Assembly (NCBI GenBank): GCA_951406725.2
Contig: OX597817.1
Location: 47,368,001-47,432,000 of the forward strand
Source of the DNA: Octopus vulgaris
Lineage: Eukaryota
Reading direction: 5' to 3'
Length of the DNA stretch: 64,000 nucleotides
The first letter of the stretch is position 1; every line of letters starts with the position of its first letter. Under the pieces are notes generated by a model, which made no database searches, was not told the origin of the DNA, and saw only the letters and a list, made by a program, of their open reading frames with translations. Below, in pieces: positions 6,371 to 37,734 of the stretch. Position numbers and translations under genes: made by a program.

Positions 6371-6775
6371 GGTGGTGGTGATGGTGATGATGATGATGAT
6401 GATGAAGCATCGTCGTTGTCAACATCATAAACATTATTAATTAATTTTCATGCTTGTATGGATCAGGTGGGGGATTTAAAGAGGCAGATTTTATTTACAG
6501 CCAGATACCTTTCTTCTTGCTGATATTCACCTCTTTCCATGCAAGGTAATTTTTTTTTCTCCCCCCCATAGCCAGACATATTTTTCACAAAGGAAGATGA
6601 ATGACTGGATGGTTAATTTAAACAAGGAACGACTACAGAACAACCACCAAATGGTAGAGAACTGACCCTTATTCTTCTCTTCTGTTTCTAATGATAAATA
6701 AAGTGATCTTCCATCAACAGAAACTTTTAAACTTCCCATTTGCCATAAATTCCCTTCATCAAGAGATAACTAGCT

Positions 6776-7507
6776 TTAACCCTTTCGTTACTGTATTTAT
6801 TTTGAGATGCTCTGTGTTTCTTTCAATTACTTTAACTATAACAAAGACTTTAGTAAAATAACTTAGTTGTCATTAAGCTAGTGTTCGGAACATAAATTGT
6901 GACTAAGGTTTGGTGGAAAGTTTAAATTCAAATCTTATGAAAAAATAGACATTTGTACTACAGAGCCTGAGGTGGTTTCAGCTAGGTTGGTATCAAAAGG
7001 GTTAAGAATTGTTTCTCTATTGTATATTTTAACCCTTTTGTTACCATATTTATTTTGAGATGATCTGTGTTTCTTTCAATTACTTTAAATATAACAAAGA
7101 ATTTAGTAAAACAAATTAGTTATCATTAAGCTAGTGTTAGGAACATAAATTGTGACTAAGGTTTGGTGGAAGATTTTAATTCAAATCTTATGAAAAAAAA
7201 GACATTTGCACTACAGAGCCTGAGGTGGTTTCAGCTAGGTTGGTATCAAAAGGGTTAAGAATTGTTTCTCTATTGTATATTTTAACCCTTTTGTTAGCAT
7301 ATTTATTTTGAGATGCTGTGTTTCTTTCAATTACATTAAATATAACAAAGAATTTAGTAAAATAACTTAGTTACCATTAAGTTAGTGTTAGGAACATAAA
7401 TTGTGACTAAGGTTTGGTGGAAGATTTTAATTCAAAACTTATGAAAGCAAGACATTTGTACTCAGAGCCAGAGCCGGCTTCAGCCGGATTGGAATTGAAA
7501 GGGTTAA
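6776..7507. mobile_element. Three tandem TTAA-flanked MITEs (piggyBac-like ends): 6780-7001, 7033-7254, 7286-7503
   Basis: Each ~220-bp unit reads TTAA|CCCTT...AAGGG|TTAA, with an identical spacer between units. Confidence 0.85.
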
Positions 7508-7971
7508 GATAATGGTTTTCCATGTCCACTGCAATTTCCTTATGAAACTAGAATTCTATGGATTATTCACTTGGGTCTCACCAAAAGTCTATAAGCTTCA
7601 CTACTAACTCTATTTGTCTGTTGGTGAGTTCCTGCACCAAAATGCAGGCAAAATCAGGATGTACATAACATAGGCTGCAAAGCTTTCCACTTCTTGCTTT
7701 TAAGGGGACACAAAAAATACAATGTAATAAAACTTATTTTAGATATATATATATAACTGAAATAGTAGCAGAATCAGTGAAAATGCTTTGCTCCATGGAT
7801 TTTAAAATATATTAAATCATTTGGAATGTCCTTGATTGTAAAGTTCATGTATTCACCTGAAGAATACGGTTTTCTTATAATGATATAGTGTACTCATTAA
7901 TCAATTAAAGGAGTCATTAGAAATGGTCATAATGAAGTGATACCTGTCCTTCAATTGTTATTTATATATAC

Positions 7972-11177: not shown

Positions 11178-11308
11178 ATTTATTATATAGAAGGACTACA
11201 GGATTAGTACTGTTTCATTCAAGAGAAATCTTCAGGAAGCTCAGAAGATTTCCTGAAGATTTCTCTTGAATGAAACAGTACTAGTCCTGTAGAAGCTCCT
11301 TCTATATA

Positions 11309-12019: not shown

Positions 12020-12885
12020 TTCATCATCATCATCAAACATCCACTTTCCATGCTGGCATGGGTTAGACAGTTTGTTTGAGAACTAGTATATCAAGGAGCT
12101 GCACCAGGTTCCAATCTGATCTGGCAAGGTTTCTATGGCTGGATGCCCTTCCTAACGCCAACCACTCCAAGAGTGTAGTGGGTGATTTTACATGCCACCA
12201 CCATGGGTGCCATTGACATGATGCCAGCATTGTCCACAATGATGACCTCACTTGGCTTGACAGGTCTACAGAAGCAGAGAATATCGCCAAAGGTCTTGGT
12301 CACTTCCTCCATGAAGCCAAATACTCAAAGGGTGCTTTTTATGTGCTGGCGACATGTCATCATGATCATCATCATTTAACATCCGTTTTCCATGCTGGCA
12401 TGAGCTGGATGGTTTGACTGAGAGCTGGCAAGGTTTCTATACCTGGATGTCCTTCCTAACACCAATCACTCTGAGAGTGTAGTGGGTGCTTTTTAAGTGC
12501 TACTAGCATAGGAGCCAGTCAGGTGGATCAGTGCTTTTTACGTGCCATTGGCATGGGAGCCAGTTGGGGACGCTTGCATCAGCCACATTCGGATGGAGCT
12601 TTTCATGTGCCACTGGCATAGGAGCTAGTCAGGCAGGTCTGGCATCGATCATGTTCGGATAGTGCTTTTTACGTGCCACTGGCTTGGGAGTCAGTGAGAG
12701 GGCGCTGGCATTGGCCACAATCGGACGGTGCTTTTTACATGCCACTGGCACAGGAGCTAGTCAGGTGGGTCTAGCATTGATTACGTTCAGATAATGCATT
12801 TTACAAGCCATCGGCATGGGAGCCAGTCAGGGGCGCTGACATCGGCCAATTCGGATGGTGCTTTTTACATGCTACCAGCACAGGA
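12020..12885 (-). mobile_element. Two adjacent family C retroposons, the second with ~6 internal repeat units
   Basis: (cat)n tails at ~12022 and ~12365; repeated ggatggtgctttttacgtgccac units. Confidence 0.75.
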
Positions 12886-13318
12886 GACATGTGTGTGTAC
12901 AAGAGTCTTCTGTAAAGTTACAGTCTCTTTCCACCTACAAAATTTCCTCCACATGGTATTGGTCAAACTAAAGTTAAAACCAAAGATACCTGTTACACAC
13001 TAGGATCGAACCTGAACAATGTAAATCTTAAGCAAACTCCTTAATCACACAGTTATACTAACACACATACTCACAAACACAAACATATCACACATACATA
13101 ACACATCACTTGAGAGAGTGTGTGTGTGTGTGCATGCGTCTGTGTGTGTGTGTGTTTGTTTTATATGAATCTATGTTAAGTGCATATGCGATGAAGATGG
13201 AAACATGAAAAGAGGTATTAAGTACACAAAACCCAGTTTAGAAAAGAAGTGTTCTGTTGTAAACACGTGCCAAATGTTAGCATCAAAAGAAATGCATACA
13301 CAGACCTGTGCATGTGTT

Positions 13319-14679: not shown

Positions 14680-15130
14680 GGCTCAAATGTGATCTGGCAA
14701 TGTTTCTACAACTGGGTGCCCTTACTAATGCCAACTACTCTGAGAGTGTGGTGGGTGCTTTTTATGTGCTGCTGGCACAGGAGCCATTCAGGCAAGACTG
14801 GCATTAATCACGTTTGGATAGTTCTTTTTACGTGCTACCAGCATGGGGGCCAGTCAGTAGGTACTGACATTGGCCATGTTCAGATGGTGCTTTTTATGTG
14901 CCATCAGCACAAGAGCCAGTCAGGGGGTACTAGCATCGGTCACATTCAGTTGGTGCTTTTTATGCGCCACCAGCACAGAAACCAGTTAGGCAGACCTGGC
15001 ATCGACCACATTCGGATGGTGCTTTTTATATGCCACCGCCATGGGAGCCAGTCAGGCGGCACTGGCCACAGCTACAATATTGGTTTTACTTGACTCAACA
15101 GGTCTTCTCAAGCATATCATATCACCCAAT
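14680..15130 (-). mobile_element. Family C retroposon
   Basis: Conserved gtttctacaactgggtgcccttactaatgcc segment plus 5 internal units. Confidence 0.7.
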
Positions 15131-19900: not shown

Positions 19901-19929
19901 TATATATACTACGTAGGTATATATATATA

Positions 19930-20210
19930 TAGTTCAAATTTACAGAAAACAAAAGACGAAGACAAGTGTAGGAACAACAAACAACTGTATTAGTTTAATG
20001 CTCAGGAAGAATGGAAAAGGATTTTACATTTCGAGCCTATGCTCTTCACTGCAAAGGATTAAGAGGAAAAAAAATGGAGAGAGAATGAAAACAAATGGAG
20101 AGAGAATGAAAAAAGAAAAATGGAAAGAGAATGAAAGAAAAAATGGAGAAAGACAGAAAAGAATGGAGATAGAAAAAAAAAGGGTAGAGATTAATGGTTC
20201 AACATGATGA
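19930..20210 (-). mobile_element. (TA)n-embedded ~200-bp hammerhead-bearing element (family H), decayed core
   Basis: Shares aaagacgaagacaggtg...gtattagtttaatgctc...tttcgagcct with 28238-28435, 30062-30255, 36310-36525 and 36765-36900. Confidence 0.75.
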
Positions 20211-24264: not shown

Positions 24265-25050
24265 TGGTATGGGCATGGGTGCTTTTTAGGTAGTACCAGC
24301 ATGGGTGCATTTTACATGGCACTAACATAGCTGCATTTTATGTGGTACCAGTACAGGTATTTTTTTACAAGGCACCAGCACAGGTGCTTTAAGCATATGG
24401 CACCAGTACAGGTGCTTTTTACATGGTACCAGCATGGTTGCTTTTTACATGGTACCTGCATGGTTGCTTTTTACATGATACCATCACGGTTGCTTCTTAC
24501 ATGGTACCAGCACGGTTGCTTTTTACATGGTACCTGCATGCTTGCTTTTTACATGGTACCAGCATGGTTGCTTCTTACATGGTACCAGCATGGTTGCTTT
24601 TTACATGGTACCAGCACGGTTGCTTTTTACATGCTACCAGCAGAGGTGCTTTTTACATGGTACCAGCATGGTTGCTTTTTACATGTACCAGCATGGTTGC
24701 TTTTTACATGGTACCAGCATGATTGCTTTTTACATGGTACCAGCAGAGGTGCTTTTTACATGGTACCAGCATGGTTGCTTTTTACATGGTACCAGCACGG
24801 TTGCTTTTTACATGGTACCTGCATGCTTGCTTTTTACATGGTACCAGCACAGTTACTTTTTACATGGTACCAGCACGGTTGCTTTTTACATGCTACCAGC
24901 AGAGGTGCTTTTTACATGGTACCAGCATGGTTGCTTTTTACATGGTACCAGCATGATTGCTTTTTACATGGTACCAGCATGGTTGCTTCTTACATGGTAC
25001 CAGCACAGTTGCTTTTTACATGGTACCAGCACAATTGCTTTTCACATGGC
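24265..25050. repeat. 26-bp minisatellite (~30 units), consensus gctttttacatggtaccagcatggtt
   Basis: Direct reading; the ORF-track peptides cycle with a 26-aa period. Degenerate relatives at ~49530-49640 and ~58650-58905. Confidence 0.95.
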
Positions 25051-28205: not shown

Positions 28206-28237
<32 letters not shown>

Positions 28238-28240
<3 letters not shown>

Positions 28241-28435
28241 AAGAGTTTACGAAAAAAAACAAAAGACAAAGACAGGTGGTGTACAAAACAAACAGATGTA
28301 TTAGTATAATGCTCAGGAATAAAAAAAAATATTTTACATTTCGAGCCTACACTCTTCTACAGAAAGGGACACAGAAAAAATCAAGGAGAGAAACAAGGAG
28401 AAAAAAAAATGTGTGTAGTGGCTAATGATCTATCA
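28238..28435 (-). mobile_element. Family H element with hammerhead (28331-28367)
   Basis: Minus strand: CTTT-CTGTAGA-A-GAGT-GTAG-GCTC-GAAAT-GTA-AAA. Confidence 0.75.
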
Positions 28436-28440
28436 TATAT

Positions 28441-29180: not shown

Positions 29181-29285
29181 ATTAATATATATATATATAT
29201 AGTCAAAGAACAAACAATTAAAAAAACGGAGAAAATAATAAAACTACAAATGTAAGGATGTGCACAAGAAATATATTAATTTGAC

Positions 29286-29318
29286 ACACATTTTGAACAC
29301 AGCTCTTCATCAGAGAGA
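29286..29318 (-). ncRNA. Decayed hammerhead motif
   Basis: CTGATGA-A-GAGC-TGT-GTTC-AAAAT-G. CGAAACG appears to have become CAAAATG by two CpG-type transitions. Confidence 0.55.
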
Positions 29319-30022: not shown

Positions 30023-30061
<39 letters not shown>

Positions 30062-30065
<4 letters not shown>

Positions 30066-30255
30066 AGAGAATTCACAGAAAAAAAAAAAGGTGACAGCAG
30101 GTAGTGTAGACAACAAACAGATGTATTAGTTTAATGCTCGGGAAGTGAAAACGTCTTTAACATTTCGAGCCTGTGCTCTTCCACAGAAAAGAACACCGAA
30201 AGAAACAAGGAGATAAAATAAAGAATGTGTAGTGGCTAGCGATCTATCATGGTGA
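30062..30255 (-). mobile_element. Family H element with hammerhead (30154-30190)
   Basis: Minus strand: TTTT-CTGTGGA-A-GAGC-ACAG-GCTC-GAAAT-GTT-AAAG. Confidence 0.75.
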
Positions 30256-36309: not shown

Positions 36310-36525
36310 CAGATCGCCATGTTGAATCGCTAGCTTCTACACGCATTTTTTTCTCTCCTTGTTTCTCTCCGTGTTTCTTTTCTGTGTATCTTTCTGTTGA
36401 AGAGCGTAGGCTCGAAACGTAAAAGACTTGTTTTATTTATATTCCTGAGCACCATACTAATACAATTGTTTGTTTGTACTCCACCTGCCTTCGTCTTTTG
36501 TTTATTTTCATAAAGCTTCCCGTTA
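36310..36525 (+). mobile_element. Family H element, best-preserved copy, (TA)n on both sides
   Basis: Full ~215-bp unit between TA tracts; contains the hammerhead at 36389-36426. Confidence 0.8.
36389..36426 (+). ncRNA. Minimal type I hammerhead with variant core CUGUUGA
   Basis: Stem I TCTTT/AAAGA; CTGTTGA-A; stem II GAGC-GTAG-GCTC; GAAAC-GTA with palindromic ACGT stem III. Confidence 0.75.
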
Positions 36526-37734
36526 TATATATATATATATATATAAAAACAGTACTGCCTGATTGGCACTTGTGCCACTGGAATGATAAAAGCACATCTG
36601 AGCATGGTTTGTAACCAGCCCACTTATGAGTACCCCTCATTCATTGTACAATAAACTTTGCTTGTGAAGATCTATTGAGACAAGTGAAAGCGAAATCAAA
36701 ATCATTGACATGGCCAATGACAGTACCACCTGATTGGCACTCATGCCAGTGGAACGTTAGTTGCTCAAATTTATAGAAAACAAAAGACGAAGACAGGTGT
36801 ATAAACAACAAGCAGGTGTATTAGTTTAATGCTCGGAAAGAATGGAAAAGTCTGCAATATTTTGAGCATACACTCTTCAACAGAAAGGATAAAGAAGCAA
36901 AGAACAGAGACAAAAAAATATGCACAGCATATAATAATACAACATACATTGGTTAATCTATGTGCATATGAATGACCATAGGATCGCACCTAGAAAGTTC
37001 CCTTCCAACCAAGGTTGTTTATGGAAGACTAGCAGTCGCCTATGCATACAAGTCTCCCTTCTCCGCACCACCAATGTTATCCAAGGGAAAGGCGAAGGTT
37101 GATACAGCTTGGCACCAGTGGCATTAGAACTCATTCCTACAGTTGAGTGAACAGTAGCGACGTGAAATAAAGTGTCTTGCTCAAAAACACAACACACAGC
37201 CTGGTCCAGGAATTGAACTCGCTACCTCATGATTGTGAACCTGATGTTCTAACCACTGAGCCATGCGCCACAAACACAGACACACACATACATACACACA
37301 TGTATATAGATAGATAATATATAAACACATGCATGTAAAAGATACACCTATAACAGGCTGAGTTAAGTACATCAACATCAGCAATATCAAAATCAAATCA
37401 AATGGAAATTGTAGTTGTGAGCCCTGTGCCAGTAGCACGTAAAAAGTACTGTCCGAACGTGCCCGATGTCAGTGCAGCCTTGACTGGTTTATATGCTGGT
37501 AGCACATAAAAAGCACCATCCAATCATGATCGATGCCAGGTCCTCTGGCCCCTTGTGCCAGTGGCACGTAAAAAGCACCCACTACACCCTCGGAGTGGTT
37601 GGCGTTAGGAAGGGCACCCAGCTGTAGAGTCACTGCCAGATAGATTGGGGCCTGGTGCAGCCTCCTGGCTTCTCAGGCCCCAATCAAACCGTCCAACCCA
37701 TGCCAGCATGGAAAACGAACGTTAAACGATGATG

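What the first reader, a model, noticed from the sequence alone, without database searches (positions are those of the whole stretch)
36389..36426. Family H carries a fixed A6>U change in the hammerhead core (CUGUNGA)
Four copies read CTGTTGA (36394), CTGTAGA (28331 copy), CTGTGGA (30154 copy) and CTGTTGA (36851 copy). U at position 6 is shared while the normally free position 7 varies, so the variant was amplified as such rather than decaying copy by copy. A relative at 29286 has canonical CTGATGA. A6 is normally highly conserved, so this may be a functional natural core variant or a family that no longer needs cleavage.
Basis: partly seen in the sequence, partly recalled or inferred. Interest (0 to 1): 0.75.

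Follow-up and report, generated by a model that had tools for sequence, protein, structure and literature searches.

The report
U6 hammerhead in a Penelope retrotransposon
A jumping gene with over 17,000 copies in this animal genome carries a small self-cutting RNA motif (hammerhead) in which one normally fixed core letter is U instead of A; the rest of the catalytic core stayed unchanged while the flanks drifted, so it is likely a slowed but still useful ribozyme, although cutting has not been tested.

Summary
Confirmed and much larger than the window. The motif is the minimal type I hammerhead in the pseudo-LTR of a Penelope-like retroelement (RT plus C-terminal GIY-YIG, likely Neptune clade); two full-length copies carry it at both ends. 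Genome-wide, 17,610 of 18,333 exact matches have U6 and 226 have A6, mostly scattered point changes. Across nine successive subfamilies chosen without regard to the core, 0 of 28 core and stem sites changed against 27 of 77 flank sites (p=7.6e-5). N7 took all four bases and the cut-site base was only A or U. So the source elements kept the catalytic geometry after U6 was fixed. Against strong cleavage: copies run through the cut site and 5' ends do not pile up there (29 junctions against 20 at a control site). Best reading: an attenuated, still-selected ribozyme (0.55); rival: a non-cutting scaffold (0.3). A sister family amplified U4C. Natural A6C is published; I found no A6U in the papers searched. 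The scan noted core variants in other Penelope families before, and possibly this same family elsewhere in this genome. No cleavage or RNA data.

The parts
36310..36524 (+). solo pseudo-LTR (3' end) of the Penelope-like element, young subfamily
   Evidence: 40 best genome matches 97-100% identical to 36330-36520; same sequence at both ends of full-length copies L243 and L245
36261..36309 (.). (TA)n microsatellite on the left of the insertion
   Evidence: sequence
36524..36546 (.). (TA)n on the right of the insertion
   Evidence: 27 of 29 young copies with a located 3' end are followed by at least 3 TA units
36389..36393 (+). stem I, 5' strand (TCTTT)
   Evidence: pairs with 36422-36426 in the predicted fold
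36394..36400 (+). core C3 U4 G5 U6 U7 G8 A9; U6 = 36397, N7 = 36398
36401..36413 (+). extra A between A9 and G10.1, then stem II GAGC/GCTC with GTAG loop
   Evidence: extra base is typical of PLE minimal hammerheads
36414..36421 (+). G12 A13 A14 A15.1, palindromic ACGU in place of stem III, A17; predicted cut between 36421 and 36422
   Evidence: sequence; numbering by the published min-HHR consensus
36422..36426 (+). stem I, 3' strand (AAAGA)
36442..36463 (+). conserved downstream boxes TTCCTGAG and CTAATAC, shared with the sister family; role unknown
28232..28438 (-). copy with CTGTAGA core
30059..30255 (-). copy with CTGTGGA core
36763..36944 (-). old copy with CTGTTGA core, G12 lost
19925..20089 (-). 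decayed copy, core GCAGTGA
29282..29318 (-). decayed hammerhead of a different, A6 family

Best explanation
The motif is the minimal type I hammerhead in the pseudo-LTR of a Penelope-like retrotransposon whose source elements have carried U at position 6 through at least nine successive subfamilies, and it is likely a slowed ribozyme that is still kept by selection. Shown: the carrier and its layout (pLTR-ORF-pLTR, hammerhead on the coding strand at both ends), fixation of U6, conservation of the other core and stem bases in the source lineage, neutral decay of inserted copies, and copying of RNA that was intact at the cut site. Inferred: two hammerheads (the two pLTRs, or two RNAs) pair through the ACGU palindrome and cut after A17/U17 at a low rate. 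U6 would lower that rate twice over, by losing the A6 contacts and by favouring an inactive monomer rod (U4.G16.2, G5-C15.2, U6-A15.1) that hides the palindrome. Slow cutting would leave most RNA intact for reverse transcription, which starts about 100 nt downstream of the cut site and must read through it, while still allowing occasional processing or turnover of tandem or read-through transcripts.
For: 17,610 of 18,333 U6. In 116 copies picked without reference to the core, 113 U6 and 3 A6; nine subfamily consensuses: 0 of 12 core and 0 of 16 stem sites vary, 27 of 77 flank sites vary (Fisher 7.6e-5; core alone 0.015). Inside the hammerhead the consensuses differ at N7 (all four bases) and H17 (A or U), the two positions that catalysis leaves free, plus one CpG-type change in loop II. 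Inserted copies decay at core sites about as fast as at flank sites (22/1603 vs 118/6770, non-CpG), so the constraint acted on source RNA. Natural A6C hammerheads keep low activity (PMC3088659 section; PMC7151607). Predicted G5-C15.2 pairing is 0.44-0.98 in six U6 copies and 0.08-0.27 in three A6 copies of the family.
Against: No cleavage was measured. 5' ends do not cluster at the cut: 1 of 97 copies starts there; (TA)n junctions at the cut number 25+4 against 20 at a control point in loop II, among roughly 4,000 young copies. Core mutants of the anole PLE hammerhead did not change insertion in vitro (PMC11167929 passage). All single mutants of the CUGA region had low activity in a mutational scan (PMC9901934 passage), and A6C cost more than 10,000-fold in Mg2+ versus Mn2+ in one construct; on an already weak minimal hammerhead A6U may leave almost nothing. 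Loop II and the downstream boxes are conserved too, so part of the constraint may be unrelated to catalysis. There are no compensatory stem changes within the family. Stasis at position 6 alone is not significant (P about 0.63): U6 may be tolerated rather than favoured.
Confidence: 0.55

Rival explanations
1. U6 ended useful catalysis; the hammerhead sequence is kept as a non-cutting element, such as a binding or dimerisation site for the element's protein or part of the pLTR promoter.
For: Templates were intact at the cut site; catalytic mutants insert normally in vitro in another PLE; loop II and downstream boxes are as conserved as the core; a sister family amplified a different core change, U4C (8,835 pattern matches, about 85 of the first 100 listed with C4 by my count).
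Against: Variation falls on N7 and H17 and avoids G17, which follows catalytic rules rather than those expected of a plain binding site or DNA promoter.
Confidence: 0.3
2. U6 is a fully competent variant in its natural setting, rescued by a host or element protein, by tertiary contacts, or by a different metal ion.
For: A6C keeps good activity in Mn2+; the family has been very successful (over 20,000 copies by a downstream anchor); cut 3' fragments might be degraded rather than copied, hiding cleavage.
Against: 79 of 97 copies begin upstream of the core and span the site; no second-site change in the core accompanies U6; the predicted monomer rod disfavours the active dimer.
Confidence: 0.08
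3. The hammerhead is a neutral relic; U6 is a founder mutation that hitch-hiked with a successful lineage.
For: One founder event explains U6 itself, and stasis at a single site is unremarkable.
Against: 0 of 28 core and stem sites changed while the oldest and youngest consensuses diverged to about 79% identity.
Confidence: 0.07

Closest known systems
Minimal type I hammerheads in pLTRs of metazoan Penelope-like elements (Cervera and de la Pena 2014, PMC4209133; read: main text parts 1-2 of 4, supplement file 2 search and part 2 of 3; file 1 not available)
   Same: Position in both pLTRs, extra base after A9, G10.1-C11.1, palindromic 15.2-16.2 with no stem III, short stem I, U-rich 5' flank, mostly solo copies
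   Different: U6: 44 of 44 rows of their alignment seen have A6, but their search fixed the catalytic boxes, so it could not have found this family. Stem II has 4 bp rather than the larger stems they report.
Natural A6C hammerhead of phage Bcep176 (Perreault 2011, PMC3088659, passages and section 8; Naghdi 2020, PMC7151607, parts 1-2 of 4)
   Same: Natural substitution at position 6 with the rest of the core intact
   Different: C not U; one phage locus with measured low, Mn2+-preferring activity, against more than 17,000 genomic copies of untested activity
Poseidon element PAc of the green anole (Frangieh 2024, PMC11167929, passages)
   Same: PLE with a hammerhead in the pLTR; uncut RNA is the template; AT-rich targets
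   Different: Its hammerhead was shown to cut in vitro and overlaps the ORF start; here it has U6 and lies in non-coding sequence several hundred bases from the ORF
Neptune-clade PLEs (Craig 2021, PMC8557442, passages)
   Same: RT followed by a CX2-5CxxC linker and a GIY-YIG with CCHH; DKG motif; (TA)n targets
   Different: Clade not tested by phylogeny; Nematis also has the linker
Animal non-LTR retrozymes (bioRxiv 10.64898/2026.07.22.740005, part 1 of 5)
   Same: Type I hammerhead in PLE-derived non-coding units
   Different: Copies here are mostly dispersed solo pLTRs of an identified autonomous element; one triple tandem seen (L010)

Membership tests
Hammerhead ribozyme (minimal type I) | C3 U4 G5 A6 N7 G8 A9 box | tested here: not met
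   U at 6 in 17,610 of 18,333; the other positions match
Hammerhead ribozyme (minimal type I) | G12 A13 A14 A15.1, U16.1, H17 not G | tested here: met
Hammerhead ribozyme (minimal type I) | Stem II closed by G10.1-C11.1 and stem I of 4-5 bp | tested here: met
   Predicted folds; invariant among subfamilies; no compensatory changes seen within the family
Hammerhead ribozyme (minimal type I) | Palindrome at 15.1-16.1 allowing a dimer | tested here: met
   ACGU in all nine consensuses; the modelled active dimer is less stable than two monomer rods
Hammerhead ribozyme (minimal type I) | Self-cleavage after position 17 | not testable with these tools
   No raw RNA reads listed; the genomic junction proxy showed no enrichment
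Penelope-like element, EN+ | RT domain | tested here: met
   Pfam RVT_1 E=3.2e-7; DKG, GVAMG and YIDD motifs
Penelope-like element, EN+ | C-terminal GIY-YIG with CCHH | tested here: met
   Motif IYCVSCSLCHSLYIG followed by two His motifs; by motif only, Pfam gave no hit at E 0.01
Penelope-like element, EN+ | Partial-tandem layout giving pLTRs on both sides of the ORF | tested here: met
   2 of 20 RT-anchored 10-kb loci (L243, L245) have both pLTRs
Neptune clade | CX2-5CxxC linker before the endonuclease | tested here: met
   CSRPRCRTC; shared with Nematis
Neptune clade | RT phylogeny with reference elements | not tested
   No reference PLE set at hand
Non-LTR retrozyme | Tandem units each with a hammerhead, circular RNA | tested here: inconclusive
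   One triple tandem among 30 young loci; no RNA data

The most novel reading that the evidence does not exclude
U6 is a selected brake. It weakens the active site and folds the monomer shut, so that the element's RNA stays intact long enough to be copied yet can still be cut. With U4C in the sister family, this would mean that successful Penelope lineages repeatedly tune their ribozyme down rather than lose it, possibly with a changed metal-ion requirement.
Probability: 0.25. Interest if true: 0.75.

Novelty: new variant of a known kind. Interest (0 to 1): 0.5.

Why it matters
What hammerheads do for Penelope-like elements is open: they cut poorly in vitro and were dispensable for insertion in the one reconstituted system. 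This family gives a natural experiment, a core change fixed for a whole lineage while every other catalytic base stayed put, with natural A6 copies and a U4C sister family as controls. It also shows that searches fixed on CUGANGA miss very large hammerhead families.

Tried and rejected
Rfam scan: only microsatellite-driven miRNA matches among the 150 rows shown. Idea that U6 and the sister's U4C stabilise the same inactive rod: true for U6, not for U4C in its own background (pairing 0.01); rejected as a shared mechanism. Idea that the downstream GAGCG box is a switch that pairs with stem II: probability 0.01-0.2 in 7 of 8 copies, 0.52 in one; not supported. A6 copies as a surviving young A6 lineage: in the tree most sit inside U6 subfamilies, and 22 of 31 share N7 with their nearest U6 copy; only 4 form a small old CTGATGA clade. 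Metagenome scan for a U6 motif: 10 single hits without family flanks, treated as chance. Sequencing runs: no RNA holder listed, contigs only; the second lay gave an empty variant table. No PLE ORF was found beside 30 sister-family loci or in the random sample, so the sister's autonomous partner is unidentified. The first 5'-end tally was limited by a 190-base extraction and was redone. Papers not held: Lunse 2017, a 2024 in vitro selection paper recalled from memory, Scott 2013; these and unseen supplements (Perreault Figs S6-S7, Cervera file 1, Roberts data) could contain A6U data.

Full report
Observation. The copy at 36389-36426 reads as a minimal type I hammerhead: stem I TCTTT/AAAGA, core CTGTTGA, an extra A, stem II GAGC-GTAG-GCTC, GAAA, C-G, U16.1 and A17. 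It lies in a unit of about 215 bases between (TA)n runs. The window is part of a 2.80-Gb, 227-contig genome. That it is an octopus is my inference from size and repeat content and from unchecked earlier notes, not a tool result.

What carries it. The 40 best genome matches are 97-100% identical. [quoted passage not shown] Of 20 RT-anchored 10-kb loci, 2 (L243, L245) are complete units of about 4.4 kb with the U6 hammerhead in both pseudo-LTRs, on the coding strand; their ORFs are broken by stops and frameshifts. These features match EN+ Penelope-like elements with the Neptune/Nematis linker (PMC8557442 passages). Neptune is likely but was not tested by a tree.

Is U6 fixed? Exact genome counts are 18,333 for any base at 6 and 7, 17,610 for U6 and 226 for A6. 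Samples not chosen by the core agree. Of 97 copies anchored on a downstream motif (20,661 genome matches; from 90 loci covering part of the first 100 listed), 78 cover the core, with 74 U6 and 4 A6, and N7 is T30, A24, C16, G8. In 864 kb of arbitrary sequence, 29 of 33 hits cover position 6: 19 U, 1 G and 9 A, of which 6 are a sister family, 2 other relatives and 1 in-family by my reading. In a tree built with positions 4, 6, 7 and 17 masked (219 of 281 aligned copies kept), A6 copies picked by pattern fall inside U6 subfamilies, except four old CTGATGA copies that group together. The change from A to U is inferred from sister families and the published consensus; the root is uncertain. Contigs of four public runs under four other organism codes listed no alternative letter at 36397 but did at N7 and H17; that table omitted G7, so it is incomplete, and the codes may be the same or close species.

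Is the ribozyme still constrained? From 116 copies chosen by flank, RT or random position, clustered on non-hammerhead columns, nine subfamily consensuses were built. No change occurs at 12 core or 16 stem sites, against 27 of 77 flank sites (Fisher p=7.6e-5; core only p=0.015). N7 takes all four bases and H17 is A or U; one old consensus has a CpG-type change in loop II. A run that also included copies selected by core pattern or overall likeness gave the same table, five N7 changes along the series, and 79% identity between the oldest and youngest consensus. G17 is found in 132 of 17,610 copies. After insertion, core sites decay at 1.4%, stems at 2.5% and flanks at 1.7% (non-CpG; copies with gaps in the core were left out), so selection acted on source elements, not on inserted copies. 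Limits: cluster seeds were chosen by hand from the tree, old subfamilies have 5-6 members, sites are not independent, loop II is conserved as well, and the stasis of position 6 by itself is not significant (P about 0.63).

Does it cut? Not tested. No RNA run with raw reads was listed. The fossil record is negative. 79 of 97 copies begin upstream of the core and 1 begins at the cut. (TA)n junctions at the cut number 25 and 4 for the two possible spellings against 20 at a control point in loop II, among about 4,000 young copies (19 of 97 scaled). Cut fragments could be destroyed rather than copied, so this shows only that the copied RNA was intact. Folding predicts that U6 adds a pair to an inactive monomer rod: G5-C15.2 probability 0.44-0.98 in six U6 copies, 0.08-0.27 in three A6 copies. 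Nearest-neighbour energies ignore tertiary contacts.

Literature. PLE minimal hammerheads are known, act as dimers and cut poorly (PMC4209133; PMC6765202 passages); 44 of 44 alignment rows seen have A6, from a search that required it. Natural A6C has low, Mn2+-favoured activity (PMC3088659; PMC7151607). CUGA-region single mutants were all low in a scan (PMC9901934 passages; supplement listed only). In the anole PLE, core mutants abolish cutting but not insertion (PMC11167929 passages). Searches for a natural A6U or an octopus hammerhead showed nothing relevant in the listed titles and abstracts; only part of the hits were listed, and Lunse 2017 could not be read.

A second variant. A sister family with stem II GAGC-TCC-GCTC has 8,835 pattern matches, mostly CCGACGA (U4C, A6), with a smaller canonical subfamily. 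Unchecked earlier notes report A6C in a shark PLE, 3-8 pair swaps in this genome, and possibly this family. They are leads only, but they suggest that core deviation in PLE hammerheads is common, which lowers the surprise of this case.

Verdict. A real, massively amplified natural A6U variant of a known ribozyme in a known element class. Best reading: attenuated and still selected (0.55); non-cutting scaffold 0.3; fully competent 0.08; neutral relic 0.07. New variant of a known kind; interest 0.5, because it makes the open question of what PLE hammerheads do directly testable, but activity is unmeasured.

Noticed in passing
G000 pattern hits, loci L352-L381: Sister family with a U4C core (CCGACGA), 8,835 pattern matches, plus a smaller canonical CTGACGA subfamily; no PLE ORF found beside the 30 loci
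   Followed up: partly
window 36442-36463: TTCCTGAGCG and AATAC boxes downstream of the hammerhead are conserved between the U6 and U4C families although other flanks diverge; a pairing switch was not supported
   Followed up: partly
window 36310-36320: Many copies have 5' ends near ATCGCCATG, 65-90 bases upstream of the core; possibly the transcription start of the pLTR promoter
   Followed up: partly
subfamily series: N7 changed five times along the lineage, more than any flank site (at most 2); hypervariability unexplained
   Followed up: no
L010:1250-1982: Three tandem pLTR copies separated by (TA)n, retrozyme-like
   Followed up: no
L243, L245, L172-L199: A long C/T-rich low-complexity tract lies between the endonuclease and the pLTR, and the ORF often reads into it without a stop
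   Followed up: no
window 11200-11288: Near-perfect 89-base inverted repeat (Rfam miRNA matches below threshold), probably a small DNA transposon
   Followed up: no
window 24273-25049; 6775-7509; 1647-1955, 12525-12886, 14754-15066: 26-base x 30 minisatellite, 253-base x 2.9 repeat, and a recurring 66-base tandem repeat family
   Followed up: no
window 59907 (+) and 10064 (-): CTGANGA...GAAA matches with possible stem II; other hammerhead-like motifs or chance
   Followed up: no
L023 and L195: Neighbouring non-LTR retrotransposon ORF fragments (RTE-like and CR1-like by recalled motifs)
   Followed up: no
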